In this document: positions 162 to 11,003 of the stretch, in pieces
Numbering within the stretch: the first letter of the stretch is position 1
Layout of the letters: each line of letters starts with the position of its first letter
Assembly: GCF_003790525.1 (NCBI RefSeq)
Contig: NZ_CP033635.1
DNA from: Escherichia coli
Lineage (GTDB): Bacteria > Pseudomonadota > Gammaproteobacteria > Enterobacterales > Enterobacteriaceae
Direction: 5' to 3' (one strand)
Length of the DNA: 64,000 nucleotides
Made by a program: the position numbers and the translations under genes
Notes under the pieces: generated by a model
What the model saw: the letters and a program-made list of their open reading frames with translations, nothing else
Database searches by the model: none
What the model was told of the DNA's origin: nothing

Positions 162-187
162 CGGTGTAGTTAATGGTGTAGTTAATT
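162..187. repeat. attL core (CGGTGTAGTTAATGGTGTAGTTAATT)
   Basis: 26/26 identical to 10978-11003. It abuts the integrase gene start. Confidence 0.8.
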
Positions 188-1438
188 GTGATGACCGGAT
201 TCAAAATTATGAGCAGAGCACTTAACAAGCTGAGCGATACACAGCTAAGGAAAATCAACGGCACACCCGCCCAAAAAACAGCCTTTCTTAATGACGGTGG
301 AAACTTGAGCGTCAGGCATTCAACCAGCGGCCTTTTAACCTGGTATTTCACTTACAGGGCCGGAACGGGAAGGGGGGCATCACCGGAACGCATTAAGCTG
401 GGAAATTATCCTGATCTGAGCCTGAAATCAGCCAGGGAAAAAGCCGCCCAGTGTCGCGCATGGCTGGCTGAGGGGAAAAATCCACGTCATGAGATGAATT
501 ACACCGTACAGGAAGCGTTAAAGCCTGTAACGGTTGGCGATGCGCTCACCTACTGGCTTGAGTCGTACGCAAAGGAAAACCGTGTGGATTATGACCCACT
601 GAAAAAGCGGCTAAATAATCACGTAATACAGCACATTGGCCCTATGCCGCTGGATAAATGCGAGCTACGGCACTGGCTGGCCTGTTTTGATCGGGTGGCA
701 AAGCAAGCCCCTGTTTCCGCCGGGTTCCTGCTACAGACATGCAAACAGGCGCTTAAGTTCTGCCGGAAGCGGCGCTATGCAATCAGCAACGTTCTTGATG
801 ATATGAGTGTGGCTGACGTTGGGAAAAAACCGGATATAGGCGAACGTGTCTTAAGCACCAAAGAACTGGGCCAATTATTGCAGGCACTGGACAAAAAAAT
901 ATTTTCCCCTTACTACGTCGCACTAATCCGCCTCCTGATTGTCTTCGGATGCCGGACAGTAGAACTGAGGCTATCGGAGATCGGGGAGTGGGATTTTACC
1001 GAAATGCTCTGGACCGTTCCGAAGGAGCACAGCAAAACGAAGGTAGCCATATTCCGGCCCATACCGGAAGCGATACTGCCGTTCGTCACGCAGCTGGTGG
1101 AGCAGAACAGGCACACGGACTTATTGCTGGGGGAAGTGAAACAGGAAACCAGCGTGTCGCAGTACGGCAGATTAGTGCACAGGAGGCTTAAACACCCTCA
1201 CTGGTCACTGCATGACATCCGGCGCACCTTTACAACGATGCTGAACGATTTAGGCGTGGATCCTCACGTCGTGGAGCAGCTTACAGGCCACCAGATGCCA
1301 GGAATGCAGCGAGTTTATAATCATTCCCGTTATCTGGATGCGAAACGCAATGCGCTGGATATGTGGGTGGAGCGGTTGGAGATACTGGCGGGAGCACATG
1401 AAAACGTAACCACGCTACCAGTAGCCAGAAGAAAATAA
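188..1438 (+). CDS. P4-family tyrosine integrase (the real start may be the Met at 209)
   Basis: 416-aa ORF. The N-terminus (MSRALNKLSDTQLRK) resembles the DUF4102 arm-binding type. The C-terminus has HDIRRTF ... GHQMPGMQRVYNHSRY, the catalytic R/H-x-x-R/Y pattern. Confidence 0.9.
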   Translation: MMTGFKIMSRALNKLSDTQLRKINGTPAQKTAFLNDGGNLSVRHSTSGLLTWYFTYRAGTGRGASPERIKLGNYPDLSLKSAREKAAQCRAWLAEGKNPRHEMNYTVQEALKPVTVGDALTYWLESYAKENRVDYDPLKKRLNNHVIQHIGPMPLDKCELRHWLACFDRVAKQAPVSAGFLLQTCKQALKFCRKRRYAISNVLDDMSVADVGKKPDIGERVLSTKELGQLLQALDKKIFSPYYVALIRLLIVFGCRTVELRLSEIGEWDFTEMLWTVPKEHSKTKVAIFRPIPEAILPFVTQLVEQNRHTDLLLGEVKQETSVSQYGRLVHRRLKHPHWSLHDIRRTFTTMLNDLGVDPHVVEQLTGHQMPGMQRVYNHSRYLDAKRNALDMWVERLEILAGAHENVTTLPVARRK

Positions 1439-1486
1439 TTTTTTTCGTGTTTTTTCAGTATGCGCATACTGGATAAGTGCACAGAT

Positions 1487-1531
1487 ACAACGTGCAACAA
1501 TACACAACAACGTGAAACAACCACGAACAAG
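1487..1531. promoter_or_regulatory. Cluster of ACAACGTG(C/A)AACAA motifs (candidate integrase arm-type or AlpA sites)
   Basis: ACAACGTGCAACAA at 1487-1500 and ACAACGTGAAACAA at 1507-1520 are reverse complements of TTGTTTCACGTTGT at 130-143 and TTGTTCCACGTTGT at 10946-10959. Confidence 0.45.
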
Positions 1532-1619
1532 AGGTCAAAAAGTATACAGATTTATAAGTTGCTGATTTTTAATGCTCAACTGGTTTTTTATACATTAGCG
1601 AATAACGCTTTAAATAGTG

Positions 1620-1653
1620 AGAAAAAAGGCATAAAACGAGATTTTATGCCTTT
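1620..1653 (-). terminator. Rho-independent terminator reading on the minus strand
   Basis: Stem AAGGCATAAAA (1626-1636) pairs with TTTTATGCCTT (1642-1652). A plus-strand A-run at 1622-1627 gives a U-tract only on the minus strand. Confidence 0.5.
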
Positions 1654-1812
1654 GCATAATACTGAATTAAAATGATTTTTATTAAAATCACCCCGTTTCT
1701 GTAAAATACCCGCCACCAACATTTGCCAACTCTGAATCACCCTGACACAATCAGACACATCCCAACGCAATAGAACACGAAATAACTCTTTAAGAAACGA
1801 AAGGGGGCAATA

Positions 1813-2001
1813 GTGTTAAGCACTGATCGCTTTATACGTGAAAAAGAATGCGAAAAGCTAACAGGCCTTAGCCGCTCATGCCGCTACCGCCTGGAAAAGG
1901 CCGGACAATTCCCATCACGGCGTAAGCTGGGCGGTCGTTCCGTTGGCTGGTCTTTATCCGAAGTTCTGGCATGGAAGGAAAGCTGCGAGGCAGTTCACTA
2001 A
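1813..2001 (+). CDS. AlpA-family excisionase / transcriptional activator
   Basis: 62 aa with a GTG start after GAAAGGGGG. The motif LTGLSRSCRYRLEKAGQFPSRRKLGGRSVGWSLSEVLAW matches the AlpA helix-turn-helix family pattern. Confidence 0.85.
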   Translation: MLSTDRFIREKECEKLTGLSRSCRYRLEKAGQFPSRRKLGGRSVGWSLSEVLAWKESCEAVH

Positions 2002-2142
2002 AAAGACTGGCGGCACACAGCCGCCACCCATCCACTAATACAGAGATTTAACCATGAAGACTGGATATACGCCCGAACAGGGGCGGGGCTTCGTTCGGCC
2101 TGGTGAAACTGAAAAACAACAAAATCGCGGTTTTTCAGACAT

Positions 2143-2170
2143 AAAAAAAGCGGCCCCGATAAGGAGCCGC
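2143..2170 (-). terminator. Minus-strand terminator
   Basis: GCGGC (2150-2154) pairs with GCCGC (2166-2170). A 7-nt plus-strand A-run at 2143-2149 gives the U-tract on the minus strand. Confidence 0.45.
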
Positions 2171-2265
2171 CTTTCTGAACAATTTACCTGCCGCGCAAAA
2201 AATGAATATGAGCAGGGGAATTATATCAACCGTGTGACGAAGCGCCACTATTGCCGGATAACAGG

Positions 2266-2294
2266 CAAAGAAAAGGCCACCTGTCACGGTGGCC
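2266..2294 (-). terminator. Minus-strand terminator just downstream of the RHH gene
   Basis: GGCCACC (2275-2281) pairs with GGTGGCC (2288-2294). The plus-strand AAAGAAAA before the stem gives UUUUCUUU on the minus strand. Confidence 0.55.
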
Positions 2295-2325
2295 AATGTG
2301 ATCAGTGTGGTGGCTTGCTGGTGGG

Positions 2326-9555: not shown

Positions 9556-9724
9556 CGGGTCCTCCCGGTGGAGTGACCTGCCACGGGGCGGGAGCGTCGC
9601 GGAAAACGGCTGATTTTTGAATTTTCATGGGACACCACCACATCAATTAACATGCTGAAAAGTAAAATAAAAATTGATTTTCACCTGTCCCATTTTACTT
9701 TTTGTGGGACATCTGACCAGTTTT
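9556..9724 (+). other. cos site copy B; cosN-like 12-mer GGGCGGGAGCGT at 9586-9597
   Basis: Same architecture as copy A, including TTTTCACCTG (9678-9687) and GACCAGTTT. It starts immediately after a terminator, as copy A does. Confidence 0.7.
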
Positions 9725-9845
9725 TAACATTATGTTTTTAAAGAGAAAAATGATATTCGAGCTGGAGAACGATGCTGGTAGATAGTTAGTGATGAACAAA
9801 AAACAAGCAAAATCGACACCATAAAAATAAAACACATTGAATATC

Positions 9846-9947
9846 AATTTGTTGCAGTAGTGGTGATGACGAATAAAATTTCAAAAACTAGCCGTTTTCC
9901 GCGACGCTCCCGCCCCGTGGCAGGGCACCCCACAAGGAGGACCCGCC
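9846..9947 (-). other. cos site copy C (inverted, truncated); cosN-like 12-mer at 9904-9915 on the minus strand
   Basis: The reverse complement reads GGGTCCTCCTTGTGGGGTGCCCTGCCACGGGGCGGGAGCGTCGCGGAAAACGGCTAGTTTTTGAA. Its 12-mer is identical to that of copy B. Confidence 0.65.
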
Positions 9948-9953
9948 ATCACT

Positions 9954-10253
9954 ATGGAGGACATGACCATGACCGAGACCGAAGCGCTCGGGATAATCCG
10001 CAGTATTACCGGAATCAGCCAGCAGGCTGGCGAACAGGAGGCCACGCAGCCGGACAGCGTGATCGCCGAAAATTACGTGCGTGTTGTTGCTGATGTAATG
10101 CGCCGTGATGGTATTGAGCTTAACGGCGTGGATATGCGCGACATACGAATCAGAGTACTAGAGTTGCTGGCATACCGTCGACGCGTGGCGATGTATCAGG
10201 AGAGCGCGAAAAACACTTATCAGTGGAAGAAGCCGGAACGGTTGCGTACGTAA
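9954..10253 (+). CDS. Hypothetical protein (99 aa; alternative starts at 9963 and 9969)
   Basis: The AGGAGG at 9935-9940 is supplied by the inverted cos copy. A terminator follows the ORF. Confidence 0.55.
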   Translation: MEDMTMTETEALGIIRSITGISQQAGEQEATQPDSVIAENYVRVVADVMRRDGIELNGVDMRDIRIRVLELLAYRRRVAMYQESAKNTYQWKKPERLRT

Positions 10254-10322
10254 TACGTACGGACATCGAGACAAAGACGGTTTAACCATCCATTAAAAAT
10301 CGACGTGATTTTGTGCTTTCCG

Positions 10323-10347
10323 GATGACGTGGCCAACGTCATTTTTT
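10323..10347 (+). terminator. Rho-independent terminator
   Basis: ATGACGT (10324-10330) pairs with ACGTCAT (10336-10342), followed by TTTTTT. Confidence 0.75.
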
Positions 10348-10385
10348 AGCGAAAAATTCTGATTAAGGTCATTGGCTTAATGGTC

Positions 10386-10429
10386 ATAATGACCACTCCT
10401 ACAGAACAGGTAAAGCCCACCAGCCTGAT
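10386..10429. repeat. Left copy of a ~45-bp imperfect direct repeat (core ACAGGTAAAGCCCACCAGCCTGAT)
   Basis: Matches 10797-10841, with 29 consecutive identical nt in the core. Confidence 0.8.
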
Positions 10430-10796
10430 AATTGCGCTGGCTGGCAAAGTGCAAAATTGCACGATGGCCTAACCCATTGATTATTTCGAAAACCTGCAAT
10501 GCAGGAAATCGGGGAAGTAAGCCTAAGCTATTGATTCTTTCGGAAACCTCAATTTGAGGAAGTCGGCGCGGTAACTCGCTGATATTCCCGATAACGCAAA
10601 ATTGCGTTGGCTGGTTGGCGAGTTGCAGATCTGCAACTCGACCATGAAACTACGGAAACTACCCGTAGTTTGGGTAGTAAGAGTAACACCCAGATTTTGG
10701 GGCTTACTCGTGATACCCAAATTTGGAGTATCGGTGGCAACCATAACGACTTTCGTTACGGTTGATGCTTTTACCCCATTGGGGGAAAGGTATTAC
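10430..10796. other. Hairpin-dense non-coding module (candidate structured RNA or ssDNA element)
   Basis: About 10 distinct stem-loops. Examples are 10449-10462, 10493-10505, 10547-10559, 10593-10608, 10619-10640 (a 22-nt perfect palindrome), 10647-10671, 10677-10707, 10712-10732, 10739-10763 and 10768-10789. Confidence 0.6.
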
Positions 10797-10841
10797 GATA
10801 ATCATAACACCTACCGAACAGGTAAAGCCCACCAGCCTGAT
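10797..10841. repeat. Right copy of the ~45-bp direct repeat
   Basis: See 10386-10429. Confidence 0.8.
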
Positions 10842-10977
10842 TGACATTTAACCGGAAAAAAAGCCAGGTAGCCCCGTTATGTGGATCCCCATATCGACAG
10901 CAACGCCCCCTTAAAATTACCCGCCTTTATATTTCTTGTGCCTATTTGTTCCACGTTGTTTCATACAGTGCGCCGAA

Positions 10978-11003
10978 CGGTGTAGTTAATGGTGTAGTTA
11001 ATT
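10978..11003. repeat. attR core
   Basis: 26/26 identical to 162-187. Confidence 0.8.

What the first reader, a model, noticed from the sequence alone, without database searches (positions are those of the whole stretch)
162..11003. 10.8-kb int-alpA-replicase-cos island downstream of phoQ: a PICI-like phage satellite at a non-tRNA att site
Perfect 26-bp direct repeats (CGGTGTAGTTAATGGTGTAGTTAATT, itself a 12-nt tandem) bracket an almost entirely co-directional gene set. The set is a P4-family integrase, AlpA, an Icd-like ORF, a RecA-fold replicase with iterons, SSB, a PerC-like regulator, one protease-capsid fusion and lambda-like cos sites. I found no terminase, portal, tail or lysis genes, so the element cannot form particles alone. 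The int-alpA-rep/ori-cos layout is the one described for Gram-negative phage-inducible chromosomal islands. From memory, in K-12 phoQ is followed directly by roxA (ycfD), which would make the whole block accessory. I cannot fold the att core into any tRNA or tmRNA 3' end, and that is atypical for this integrase family.
Basis: partly seen in the sequence, partly recalled or inferred. Interest (0 to 1): 0.6.

Follow-up and report, generated by a model that had tools for sequence, protein, structure and literature searches.

The report
EcCICFT073-type phage satellite beside phoQ

Summary
The island is real and is a phage satellite, but a known kind. It sits between roxA (ycfD) and phoQ, the published attachment site of EcCICFT073, the prototype Gram-negative PICI (core GGACATATTT).

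Compared with K-12, the junctions are at 28-37 and 11076-11085, overlapping the phoQ stop codon, which gives an element of 11,048 bp. The exact 26-bp repeats (two tandem GGTGTAGTTAAT) lie inside both arms. They are conserved in relatives at another chromosomal site and absent from the empty site. I infer they are integrase arm-type sites.

Int, AlpA and SSB are 94-97% identical to EcCICFT073. The replicase (RepA-type helicase) and the late module differ. The late module is a ClpP-protease/capsid fusion plus three lambda-like cos sites whose cosN (GGGCGGGAGCRT) matches mEp460/Tritos/cdtI-type phages. cos1 copies 204-233 bp of those phages' cos region.

I found no TerS, Rpp, TerL, portal, tail or lysis gene, so it is not a capsid-forming PICI.

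Side observations: Chi is the commonest 8-mer, and the right end carries units copied from phage roi genes.

Verdict: new member of a known kind, modest interest.

The parts
28..37 (+). attL core GGACATACTT (one mismatch to the published core GGACATATTT); left junction with K-12 sequence
   Evidence: Alignment with the K-12 empty site and with other occupied sites. Published core for EcCICFT073 at ycfD-phoQ; published attL/attR sequences.
163..186 (+). Tandem GGTGTAGTTAAT x2 in the attL arm, 22 bp upstream of the int start codon. Inferred integrase arm-type binding sites.
   Evidence: Exact repeat. Present on both arms of EcCICFT073 and 4 other relatives, including L007 at the cspD/clpS site (Int 75% identical); absent from the K-12 attB. 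Part of a 75-nt arm similarity, 113-187 vs 10929-11003 (D2).
209..1438 (+). Tyrosine integrase, 409 aa, 94% identical to EcCICFT073 Int
   Evidence: Pfam Arm-DNA-bind_3 and Phage_integrase. tblastn 94.6% identity; global identities to relatives.
1506..1532 (-). Inverted copy of the arm motif TCTTGTTCC..GTTTCACGTTGT (also at 118-143 and 10934-10960), in the int-alpA intergenic region. Possible Int/AlpA binding site (inferred).
   Evidence: Inverted repeats I3 and I4.
1813..2001 (+). AlpA regulator, 62 aa, 95% identical to EcCICFT073 AlpA
   Evidence: Pfam Phage_AlpA; tblastn.
2054..2890 (+). 278-aa ORF whose C-terminus (residues 230-273) is an Icd-like domain. The N-terminal part has no family match. 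Relatives have separate or fragmented genes here.
   Evidence: NCBIfam NF033153; PHROG hits on residues 171-277; annotations of relatives.
2766..3712 (+). Small conserved PICI ORFs of unknown function (mechanical ORFs 2766-3251, 3241-3480, 3446-3712). The last two correspond to the two halves of phrog_2512.
   Evidence: PHROG hits; homologues in EcCICFT073.
3791..4078 (+). DUF4222 protein, 75% identical to the EcCICFT073 homologue. Position matches the rgdR gene listed for EcCICFT073, but that identification was not tested.
   Evidence: Pfam DUF4222; tblastn; accessory genes 'rdgR; perC' listed for EcCICFT073.
4075..5481 (+). Replication protein: AAA_25/RepA-type helicase, 468 aa. The N-terminal 131 aa are 47% identical to the EcCICFT073 primase; the rest is a different allele.
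   Evidence: Pfam AAA_25; phrog_2850 over the full length; tblastn. RefSeq names relatives 'helicase RepA family protein'.
5476..5682 (.). Replication origin: 10 GTGAG iterons (8 on +, 2 on -) around A+T-rich stretches, directly downstream of rep
   Evidence: Counts against the window background; direct repeat D7; sequence.
5683..6297 (+). Two small conserved ORFs (5683-6051, 6055-6297) of unknown function
   Evidence: phrog_27268 and phrog_1231. The second is 90% identical to the EcCICFT073 homologue.
6294..6704 (+). Single-strand DNA-binding protein, 97% identical to that of EcCICFT073
   Evidence: Pfam SSB; tblastn.
6715..6987 (+). PerC-family regulator, 66% identical to EcCICFT073 PerC
   Evidence: Pfam PerC; tblastn.
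7011..7251 (+). cos1: cosQ, cosN (GGGCGGGAGCAT, 7048-7059) and a helper-type cosB with an IHF consensus at 7111-7123. Preceded by a terminator hairpin at 6994-7011.
   Evidence: 89-91% identical over 204-233 bp to the cos regions of phages HannyBb, Tritos and cdtI, up to their DUF1441 small-terminase start. The Tritos and cdtI records begin exactly at 7048. 88.8% identical to the prophage cos in L006. IHF consensus; terminator.
7402..7611 (+). 69-aa ORF preceding the capsid gene, unknown function, 98.6% identical in the helper-embedded PICI of L006
   Evidence: phrog_4934; tblastn; no solved-structure relative.
7608..9524 (+). ClpP-like prohead protease / scaffold / major capsid protein fusion, 638 aa
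   Evidence: NF045540 at 908 bits; Pfam CLP_protease + Phage_capsid_4. 56-57% identical to the head protein of mEp043/mEp213/mEp460/VT1-Sakai-type phages. 94-99% identical to PICI alleles and 60% to the resident prophage allele, which carries 17 extra N-terminal residues and a 28-residue linker segment.
9549..9765 (+). cos2: cosQ and cosN (GGGCGGGAGCGT, 9586-9597) with a non-phage flank. Positional equivalent of EcCICFT073 cos.1. Preceded by a terminator at 9532-9547.
   Evidence: Repeat D1. Phage records begin at 9586. Phage similarity stops near 9641. The flank matches L002 in reverse orientation. EcCICFT073 cos positions.
9785..9945 (-). cos3, inverted copy: cosN at 9904-9915 on the - strand, flank 9785-9859 with an IHF consensus at 9842-9854. 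Positional equivalent of EcCICFT073 cos.2.
   Evidence: Inverted repeat I1. The flank matches the cos flank upstream of the PICI DUF1441 terS in L006, and matches L007..
9954..10253 (+). 99-aa ORF conserved as the last gene of the family (73% identical to the EcCICFT073 homologue), unknown function
   Evidence: phrog_1561; tblastn; no solved-structure, NCBIfam or PADLOC match.
10254..10977 (.). Non-coding right end. Contains a 44-bp direct repeat (10386-10429 and 10798-10841, each with a Chi on the - strand), two ~54-nt units (about 10469-10578), each an IHF consensus plus a short palindrome, and further hairpins (10619-10640, 10647-10671).
   Evidence: Fold z-scores of -9 and -8; hairpin list; variable unit number in relatives; units match the antisense strand of lambdoid roi/anti-repressor genes at 94%; IHF consensus.
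10979..11002 (+). Tandem GGTGTAGTTAAT x2 in the attR arm. Inferred arm-type sites.
11044..11056 (+). IHF consensus AATCAATACATTA between the arm repeats and the core
   Evidence: 12 matches in 64 kb against 3.5 expected; 5 of them lie in the element.
11076..11085 (+). attR core GGACATATTT, overlapping the phoQ stop codon (TTA at 11084-11086 on the + strand)
   Evidence: published core.

Best explanation
The block is an integrated Gram-negative phage-inducible chromosomal island (PICI) of the EcCICFT073 family. It is 11,048 bp from core to core and sits at that family's published site, the last bases of phoQ next to roxA.

Shown here:
- It is an insertion relative to K-12, with junctions at GGACATAYTT.
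- Its integrase, AlpA, SSB and last ORF are close homologues of those of EcCICFT073.
- It has its own helicase-type replicase with a downstream iteron origin.
- It carries three cos sites whose cosN and (for cos1) 204-233 bp of cos region match lambdoid siphophages of the mEp460/Tritos/cdtI/HannyBb group.
- Its only morphogenesis gene is a ClpP-protease/capsid fusion related to the head protein of those same phages.

Inferred by homology with the experiments on EcCICFT073:
- A helper phage switches on alpA, and AlpA activates the island.
- Int excises the island at the GGACATATTT core. The tandem GGTGTAGTTAAT repeats serve as arm-type sites, with IHF binding at 11044-11056.
- The RepA-type helicase and SSB replicate the circle from the iteron origin into concatemers.
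- The helper terminase recognises cos1 directly, because cos1 carries a helper-type cosB and the island has neither Rpp nor TerS.
- About four tandem copies (44.2 kb) fill a helper-sized head, and the particle uses the helper's portal, tail and lysis functions.

The role of the island's own capsid fusion is open.
For: Insertion and core:
- K-12 has roxA and phoQ 75 bp apart.
- Alignment places the junctions at 28-37 and 11076-11085.
- The supplement of PMC6092414 lists EcCICFT073 at ycfD-phoQ with core GGACATATTT, and PMC10111431 gives matching attL and attR sequences.

Homology with EcCICFT073:
- Int 94.6%, AlpA 95.2%, SSB 97.1%, DUF4222 75%, PerC 66%, last ORF 73%.
- About 694 of 5,426 complete genomes carry this attL arm at the same place.

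Replicon: AAA_25 helicase; 10 GTGAG iterons against 0.3 expected.

Packaging:
- Three cos copies.
- Phage records begin exactly at the predicted cosN base.
- cos1 is 89-91% identical over 204-233 bp to the Tritos, cdtI and HannyBb cos regions.
- The same capsid module is 98% identical in a PICI embedded in the terminase gene of a prophage that has this cos and this head type.
- The helper group has genomes of 42.8-47.0 kb against 4 x 11,048 = 44,192 bp.

No TerS, Rpp, TerL, portal, W or DUF2190 homologue was found in the window.

Published experiments on EcCICFT073 (PMC6092414; PMC6739421): Int and AlpA are required for transfer, alpA is induced by the helper, the cos sites work, and the packaged DNA is phage-sized.
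Against: - Nothing about induction, excision or transfer can be tested from sequence.
- Whether a helper prophage exists in the source genome is unknown. The other 53 kb of the window match core chromosome in other E. coli genomes; no prophage was noticed, but the region was not annotated gene by gene.
- Relatives carry terS or rpp between the inverted cos pair, and a divergently transcribed YlcI/YnfO gene after alpA. This element has neither, so it could be a deletion derivative with impaired regulation or packaging.
- In EcCICFT073 the functional cos site needed Rpp. Direct helper recognition of cos1 here is an inference from cosB similarity only.
- The arm-type role of the 12-mers rests on position and conservation, not on binding data.
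Confidence: 0.85

Rival explanations
1. It is a decaying, no longer mobilisable PICI remnant. Deletions removed terS or rpp (between the inverted cos pair) and the divergent regulator after alpA, leaving an island that can no longer be induced or packaged efficiently.
For: Relatives have terS, a DUF1441 gene or rppA between the two inverted cos copies; here only about 220 bp remain. There is no YlcI/YnfO gene, and an unusual 278-aa ORF ends in the Icd-like domain. No complete genome holds this exact mosaic.
Against: Every core gene (int, alpA, rep, ssb, perC, capsid fusion, last ORF) is full length relative to its homologues. Both att cores and both arm repeats are intact. cos1 keeps a complete helper-like cos region. 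EcCICFT073 itself lacks terS (PMC6092414).
Confidence: 0.12
2. It works as a partly capsid-autonomous satellite. The island's own protease/capsid fusion assembles island-sized small heads on the helper's portal, or co-assembles with the helper capsid protein and redirects its size. This would be a step between classical PICIs and capsid-forming PICIs.
For: The fusion is intact: the ASMAS and MIHKP segments, where I place the ClpP Ser and His by recollection, are conserved. It is 94-99% conserved among PICIs at three different sites but only about 60% identical to the phage allele. It lacks a 28-residue linker segment between protease and scaffold and has a 7-residue insertion in the capsid domain. 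SaPIbov5 Ccm and PmCI172 are precedents for capsid homologues linked to small heads (PMC6092414).
Against: Deleting the capsid or decoration gene of EcCICFT073 changed neither transfer nor interference, and its DNA was packaged at phage size. There is no portal, connector, TerL or HNH gene here. Four copies of the island match the helper genome length.
Confidence: 0.12
3. A 10.8-kb element recombines at the 26-bp repeat, and positions 38-161 and 11004-11075 are leftovers of an older insertion.
For: The 26-mer is an exact direct repeat and is far longer than the 10-bp core.
Against: No genome among 5,426 has the predicted site with one 26-mer between those flanks. The same tandem 12-mers occur on both arms of a relative at a different chromosomal site. 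The published and experimentally used att core for this integrase type is GGACATATTT. The layout arm repeat, then IHF consensus, then core is typical of an attP arm.
Confidence: 0.02
4. It is a defective lambdoid prophage remnant rather than a satellite.
For: The capsid gene, cos sites and several small ORFs have phage homologues.
Against: There is no repressor/cro, N/Q, lysis, tail, portal or terminase gene. The int-alpA-rep-ori order, size and site are those of the PICI family.
Confidence: 0.01

Closest known systems
EcCICFT073, the prototype Gram-negative PICI (Fillol-Salom et al. 2018, PMC6092414; 2019, PMC6739421)
   Same: Same chromosomal site (ycfD/roxA-phoQ) and same att core. Int 94%, AlpA 95% and SSB 97% identical. 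Same gene order (int, alpA, small ORFs, DUF4222, rep, ori, ssb, perC, capsid module, inverted cos pair, last ORF). Similar size, 11.0 vs 11.4 kb.
   Different: The replicase is a RepA-type helicase instead of a primase (only the first 131 aa are related). The capsid module is a ClpP/capsid fusion instead of a lambda-E-like capsid protein plus a decoration protein. cosN is GGGCGGGAGCRT instead of the lambda/phi80 GGGCGGCGACCT. There is an extra upstream cos1 with a helper-type cosB. There is no RppA and no 137-aa ORF.
PICIs that carry the same ClpP/capsid fusion: the cspD-clpS island of strain MSHS 133 (L007) and the helper-embedded PICI in the terminase gene of a prophage of strain EC42405 (L006; class described in PMC10111431)
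   Same: The late module (cos1, 69-aa ORF, fusion gene, cos2) is 90% and 98% identical. The cos copies are arranged the same way. L006 also has a RepA-type helicase.
   Different: They use other integration sites and other integrases (75% and 21% identical). Both carry a small-terminase-like gene after cos2, which is missing here.
Capsid-forming PICIs (EcCIEDL933; Alqurainy et al., bioRxiv 10.1101/2022.09.08.507074)
   Same: An int-alpA-rep left half and an island-encoded capsid protein and head protease.
   Different: cf-PICIs also encode a portal, head-tail connectors, HNH, TerS and TerL, and are about 15 kb. None of these is present here.
Satellite P4 and cos-type SaPIs such as SaPIbov5
   Same: Packaging by carrying the helper's cos site. 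SaPIbov5 also carries a capsid-protein homologue (as cited).
   Different: No P4 genes (sid, psu, delta, epsilon, alpha) were detected, and gene order and regulators differ. The relationship is analogy, not homology, apart from distant Int and AlpA similarity (PMC6092414).

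Membership tests
Gram-negative PICI, EcCICFT073 family | Integration at a specific PICI attachment site (here ycfD/roxA-phoQ, core GGACATATTT) | tested here: met
   Junctions at 28-37 and 11076-11085 against the K-12 empty site. Published site and core.
Gram-negative PICI, EcCICFT073 family | Integrase followed by a co-directional alpA, with the remaining genes in the same direction | tested here: met
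Gram-negative PICI, EcCICFT073 family | Own replicon: pri/rep gene with an iteron-type origin immediately downstream | tested here: met
   AAA_25/RepA helicase at 4075-5481. 10 GTGAG iterons in 5470-5690 around A+T-rich DNA. The rep allele differs from that of EcCICFT073 but occurs in annotated relatives.
Gram-negative PICI, EcCICFT073 family | Small size (10-20 kb) and no tail, lysis, portal or large-terminase genes | tested here: met
   11,048 bp. Family scans and tblastn with phage head genes were negative.
Gram-negative PICI, EcCICFT073 family | Packaging signal: helper-type cos site(s) or an island terS | tested here: met
   Three cos copies; cos1 is 89-91% identical to phage cos regions, and phage records start at the predicted cosN.
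Gram-negative PICI, EcCICFT073 family | Helper-phage-dependent induction, excision, replication, packaging and high-frequency transfer | not testable with these tools
   Needs experiments. Shown only for the homologue EcCICFT073.
Gram-negative PICI, EcCICFT073 family | Rpp protein that redirects the helper TerS to the island's cosB (described for cos-type E. coli PICIs) | tested here: not met
   tblastn with RppA (c1503 product) found nothing in the window at E up to 1. The two small ORFs tested have no match to solved structures, which include RppC. Rpp is a feature of many family members, not of all: several relatives have terS instead.
SatelliteFinder PICI model (de Sousa et al. 2023, PMC10085698) | Five core components: integrase, AlpA-type regulator, primase-replicase, capsid morphogenesis gene, small terminase. 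Type A has all five, Type B has four. | not tested
   SatelliteFinder could not be run. By my annotation four of five are present (terS missing), which would be Type B if the helicase is recognised by the pri-rep profile.
Capsid-forming PICI (cf-PICI) | Island-encoded portal, head-tail adaptor/connector, HNH, TerS and TerL in addition to capsid and protease | tested here: not met
   Apart from the capsid fusion gene (7608-9524), no ORF of 100 aa or more lies on the + strand between 7200 and 11000. tblastn with portal, terS, DUF1441 and connector proteins was negative. Definition.
P4-like satellite | psu-delta-sid operon, epsilon, alpha primase | tested here: not met
   No ORF matched such families in Pfam, PHROGs or NCBIfam. 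No dedicated Sid/Psu/Delta profile search was made.
Functional lambdoid prophage | Immunity region, N/Q antiterminators, lysis cassette, full head and tail gene sets | tested here: not met
   The flanks are roxA upstream DNA and phoQ.

The most novel reading that the evidence does not exclude
The non-coding right end and the late module may hold undescribed helper-directed devices:
(a) The tandem units at about 10469-10578 (2 here, up to 4 in relatives) each combine an IHF consensus with a short palindrome. They are copies, 88-96% identical over 27-48 nt, of an internal segment of different lambdoid roi/anti-repressor gene alleles, in antisense orientation. They could act as decoy or sensor sites (DNA or antisense RNA) for the helper's Roi protein or roi transcript.
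(b) The roughly five-fold Chi enrichment could protect island concatemers from RecBCD in an element without a Gam-type inhibitor.
(c) The PICI-specific ClpP/capsid fusion could build or resize heads using only the helper's portal.
Probability: 0.15. Interest if true: 0.6.

Novelty: new member of a known kind. Interest (0 to 1): 0.3.

Why it matters
As an identification it matters little. The island belongs to a described family at that family's described site, and all of its modules occur in annotated relatives.

It is useful in three smaller ways:
- It shows that the long exact repeats near the ends of these islands are internal arm elements. Repeat-based delimitation of such islands therefore gives wrong ends and a false 'no empty site' result.
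- It is a natural variant in which the EcCICFT073 integration and regulation module is combined with a cos region and capsid gene matched to another helper group (mEp460/Tritos/cdtI type), without Rpp or TerS. This predicts a different helper range and direct cos recognition.
- The family-wide Chi enrichment and the roi-derived units are cheap, testable leads on how these satellites deal with RecBCD and with their helpers.

Tried and rejected
- Lambda cosN search (GGGCGGCGACCT, up to 2 mismatches): no hit inside the element. This looked like a refutation of the cos claim until the repeat search showed three copies of a cos-like 82-mer whose cosN differs at 4 positions.
- tRNA/tmRNA scan of the whole window: none.
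- Rfam at E up to 1 over 1-11200: no match, so the hairpin-rich right end is not a described RNA family.
- Solved-structure searches with the 99-aa and 69-aa ORFs: only chance-level hits, no RppC.
- PADLOC on ten island ORFs: no defence family.
- CsrA-sponge idea for the hairpin array: by my own inspection, 7 GGA motifs in about 370 nt is close to expectation, so I dropped it.
- Intrinsic-terminator insulation of phoQ read-through by the array: the terminator scan lists no - strand terminator there, so this is not supported.
- Strict co-variation of capsid type with cos type: rejected. L002 combines a lambda-E-like capsid gene with one GGGCGGGAGCAT cos copy.
- Clerget & Boccard 1996 on HK022 Roi could not be retrieved. 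The statement that Roi binds inside its own gene next to an IHF site rests on my recollection of that abstract.

Full report
**Observation check**

The 26-bp sequence CGGTGTAGTTAATGGTGTAGTTAATT occurs exactly twice in the window, at 162-187 and 10978-11003; none was expected in shuffles. The repeat extends at lower identity to 75 nt, 113-187 against 10929-11003 at 79%.

The gene list is also confirmed:
- integrase 209-1438
- AlpA 1813-2001
- an Icd-like domain at the end of ORF 2054-2890
- DUF4222 3791-4078
- an AAA_25/RepA-type helicase 4075-5481
- SSB 6294-6704
- PerC 6715-6987
- a 638-aa ClpP-like prohead protease/major capsid fusion 7608-9524 (NCBIfam NF045540, 908 bits)

All of these lie on the + strand. 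The iterons are real: 10 GTGAG motifs in 5470-5690 against 0.3 expected, around stretches of 71-75% A+T. ARAGORN finds no tRNA or tmRNA in the window.

In K-12 the roxA start and the phoQ stop are 75 bp apart. Aligning that empty site with the window shows two breakpoints. K-12 sequence is followed on the left up to GTGAAGTATGG at position 29. It resumes on the right at CATATTTATTCATC, from 11079.

The block shared by attL, attR and attB is GGRCATAYTT. This lies at 28-37 on the left and 11076-11085 on the right, and the right copy overlaps the phoQ stop codon (TTA at 11084-11086 on the + strand). The element is therefore 11,048 bp long, and both 26-mers lie inside it. The left one is 125 bp from the left core and the right one is 72 bp from the right core.

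A synthetic 'empty site' with one 26-mer between the adjoining sequences found no full-length match in 5,426 complete E. coli genomes. The best hits covered only the attR side of resident islands.

**The site and core are already published**

The supplement of Fillol-Salom et al. 2018 lists EcCICFT073 (AE014075.1 1377749-1389210, 11.4 kb) and EcCIRM12579 at ycfD-phoQ with att core GGACATATTT. The Williams-laboratory supplement gives attL and attR sequences that match the window's junctions. About 694 of 5,426 complete genomes carry the same attL arm at this position.

**What the 26-bp repeats are**

Each repeat is two tandem copies of GGTGTAGTTAAT. The same tandem pair is found on both arms of EcCICFT073 (L008) and of three further islands at roxA-phoQ (L001, L002, L004). 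It is also found on both arms of an island at a different chromosomal site, cspD-clpS (L007), whose integrase is only 75% identical. It is absent from the K-12 attB.

A core sequence would change with the target site, whereas a protein-binding site in the arms would travel with the integrase family. The integrase has an N-terminal arm-DNA-binding domain. A perfect IHF consensus (11044-11056) lies between the right repeat and the core. I therefore read the 12-mers as arm-type integrase sites. This is an inference from position and conservation, with no binding data.

A second arm motif (TCTTGTTCC…GTTTCACGTTGT) occurs at 118-143 and 10934-10960, and inverted at 1506-1532 between int and alpA.

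**Relationship to EcCICFT073**

tblastn with the EcCICFT073 proteins gave these identities:

| Protein | Identity |
|---|---|
| Int | 94.6% |
| AlpA | 95.2% |
| SSB | 97.1% |
| 85-aa ORF before ssb | 90.5% |
| DUF4222 | 75% |
| PerC | 66% |
| last ORF | 73% |

Two modules are different alleles. First, the replicase shares only its first 131 residues (47%) with the EcCICFT073 primase and is otherwise a RepA-type helicase, as in L001, L002 and L006. Second, the EcCICFT073 late genes (lambda-E-like capsid protein, decoration protein, a 137-aa ORF and RppA) have no counterpart here. Their place is taken by a 69-aa ORF and the ClpP/capsid fusion. No complete genome in the collection holds at least 80% of the 12.6-kb query in one place, so this exact mosaic is not represented there.

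**The late module and the likely helper**

The fusion protein is 56-57% identical over its full length to the head protein of lambdoid siphophages such as mEp043, mEp213, mEp460, HannyBb, 1720a-02 and VT1-Sakai.

At the DNA level the module (6994-9641) is 98% identical to that of an island embedded in the large-terminase gene of a lambdoid prophage in strain EC42405. That prophage has the same head-protein type (L006). The arrangement is the helper-embedded PICI described in PMC10111431. The module is 90% identical in the cspD-clpS island L007. In all, 169 genomes have at least 80% of the module.

Compared with the prophage allele, the PICI alleles are 94-99% identical to each other. They lack 17 N-terminal residues and a 28-residue linker segment, and they carry a 7-residue insertion in the capsid domain. 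They keep the ASMAS and MIHKP segments, where I place the ClpP catalytic Ser and His by recollection.

**cos sites**

An 82-nt sequence that aligns with the lambda cosQ-cosN region occurs three times: at 7011-7092 (+), at 9549-9630 (+), and inverted at 9860-9945. The cosN is GGGCGGGAGCAT or GGGCGGGAGCGT, at 7048-7059, 9586-9597 and 9904-9915 (- strand). This differs from lambda's GGGCGGCGACCT at four positions, which is why a search allowing two mismatches missed it.

The assignment is supported by phage records that begin exactly at the predicted first base of cosN: Tritos and cdtI for both cos1 and cos2.

EcCICFT073's published cos.1 and cos.2 (sequences) map to L008 10129-10176 (+) and 10892-10939 (-). 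They form an inverted pair flanking rppA. The window's cos2 and cos3 are the same inverted pair. In L007 that pair flanks terS. In the window it flanks only about 220 bp.

cos1 is an additional upstream copy shared with L006 and L007. It alone has a phage-like cosB. Positions 7019-7251 are 89-91% identical over 204-233 bp to the cos regions of HannyBb, Tritos and cdtI, right up to the start of their DUF1441-type small-terminase gene. They are 88.8% identical to the cos of the L006 prophage. Phage similarity at cos2 stops about 45 bp beyond the 3' end of cosN.

IHF consensus sites lie next to cos1 (7111-7123) and cos3 (9842-9854). Both cos1 and cos2 are preceded by terminator hairpins.

**What is absent**

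tblastn with terS and DUF1441 proteins of four relatives, RppA, a portal, the W-like 70-aa protein, a connector and DUF2190 gave no hit in the whole window at E up to 1. The only exception was the expected AlpA cross-match of one HTH protein.

The other 53 kb of the window match core E. coli chromosome (purB, icd, bluF, pdeG, nhaB, cvrA and others). I did not annotate them gene by gene, and I noticed no helper prophage next to the island on that side. The left neighbour, by synteny, is roxA-pepT.

**Mechanism**

Shown for the close homologue EcCICFT073 (PMC6092414; PMC6739421):
- int and alpA deletions abolish transfer.
- alpA is switched on by a helper phage rather than by SOS, and AlpA activates its own promoter.
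- The pri-ori segment replicates.
- Both cos sites mediate transfer, and the helper terS is required.
- Packaged DNA is phage-sized.
- Deleting the capsid or decoration gene changes neither transfer nor interference.
- Rpp retargets the helper TerS to the island's cosB.

Inferred for this element: the same induction, excision and replication steps, followed by direct recognition of cos1 by the terminase of a Tritos/cdtI/HannyBb/mEp460-type helper, because cos1 has that group's cosB and the island has no Rpp or TerS.

Four tandem copies make 44.2 kb, which is 94-103% of the 42.8-47.0 kb genomes of that phage group. This fits the concatemer packaging reported for EcCICFT073. The function of the capsid fusion remains open. 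A size-redirecting or partly autonomous head role is possible but has no support from the EcCICFT073 experiments.

**Classification**

The element meets every sequence-testable feature of the Gram-negative PICI family. It fails the cf-PICI definition (portal, connectors, HNH, TerS, TerL) and the P4-like gene set. Under the SatelliteFinder scheme it would have four of five PICI core components (no terS). That tool was not run.

It is a new mosaic member of a known kind.

**Side observations**

Chi enrichment. Chi (GCTGGTGG) is the most frequent 8-mer of the element: 10 copies in 11 kb against 10 in the other 53 kb (Poisson P about 7e-5). All six relatives examined have 9-15 copies per ~11 kb. 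A full-text search found no paper linking Chi and PICIs beyond one general review.

The non-coding right end (10254-10977). It folds far better than shuffles on both strands, with z-scores of -9 and -8, and consists of many short hairpins. Within it are ~54-nt units, each holding a perfect IHF consensus and a short palindrome whose arms differ between units in a compensating way (CCTGC/GCAGG, CCTCA/TGAGG, TTCGCC/GGCGAA). These units are repeated 2 to 4 times in different relatives.

One unit is 94% identical over 48 nt to an internal segment of the roi/anti-repressor gene of H-19B, HK140, Stx2 phage 86 and about 40 other phage records, on the antisense strand. The neighbouring unit matches other roi alleles. 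From memory of Clerget and Boccard 1996 (not retrievable), HK022 Roi binds a site inside its own gene next to an IHF site. If so, the units could be Roi-site copies. This is a lead, not a result.

Noticed in passing
window 28-11085; also L001, L002, L004, L006, L007, L008: Chi (GCTGGTGG) is the most frequent 8-mer in the island: 10 copies in 11 kb against 10 in the remaining 53 kb (P about 7e-5). In the window, the six copies at 1093-6323 are on the + strand and the four at 6657-10829 are on the - strand. All six related PICIs have 9-15 copies per ~11 kb. No paper in the held library links Chi to PICIs.
   Followed up: partly
window 10469-10578 (units), within the non-coding right end 10254-10977: Tandem ~54-nt units, each a perfect IHF consensus plus a short palindrome with compensating differences between units. 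They are 88-96% identical over 27-48 nt to an internal segment of lambdoid roi/anti-repressor genes on the antisense strand, and different units match different roi alleles. Copy number is 2-4 in relatives. Possibly Roi-binding-site copies or an antisense RNA.
   Followed up: partly
window 10380-10860: A run of about ten short hairpins (stems of 5-9 bp, loops of 3-7 nt). Fold z-scores are -9 and -8 on the two strands, and there is no Rfam match. The run is flanked by a 44-bp direct repeat (10386-10429 and 10798-10841).
   Followed up: partly
window 9549-9945; L008 10129-10939; L007 11563-12507: The two cos sites described for EcCICFT073 are an inverted pair that flanks rppA. The same inverted pair flanks terS in L007 and nothing in this window. 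Recombination between the inverted copies could invert or delete the enclosed packaging gene.
   Followed up: partly
window 10307-10365: A 59-nt stretch 78-80% identical, in reverse orientation, to a segment at or within the endolysin R gene of Stx phages and Shigella phage Ss-VASD.
   Followed up: no
window 3241-3712: Two overlapping ORFs (3241-3480 and 3446-3712) match the first and second halves of one PHROG family (phrog_2512, 154 positions). L002 has a single 456-nt gene here, while EcCICFT073 has two genes. This is either a frameshift or a natural split.
   Followed up: no
window 12600-37500: This stretch matches at a median of 11 places per E. coli genome and at many plasmid places, so it probably contains an insertion sequence or another multicopy element. 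Genes named under the best match include icd and an autotransporter adhesin.
   Followed up: no
L005 (E. coli Nissle 1917) 1501-3032: At the same roxA-side junction, Nissle 1917 carries an integrase fragment lacking its N-terminus, followed by other satellite-like genes. The site is therefore occupied by decayed or different islands in some strains.
   Followed up: no
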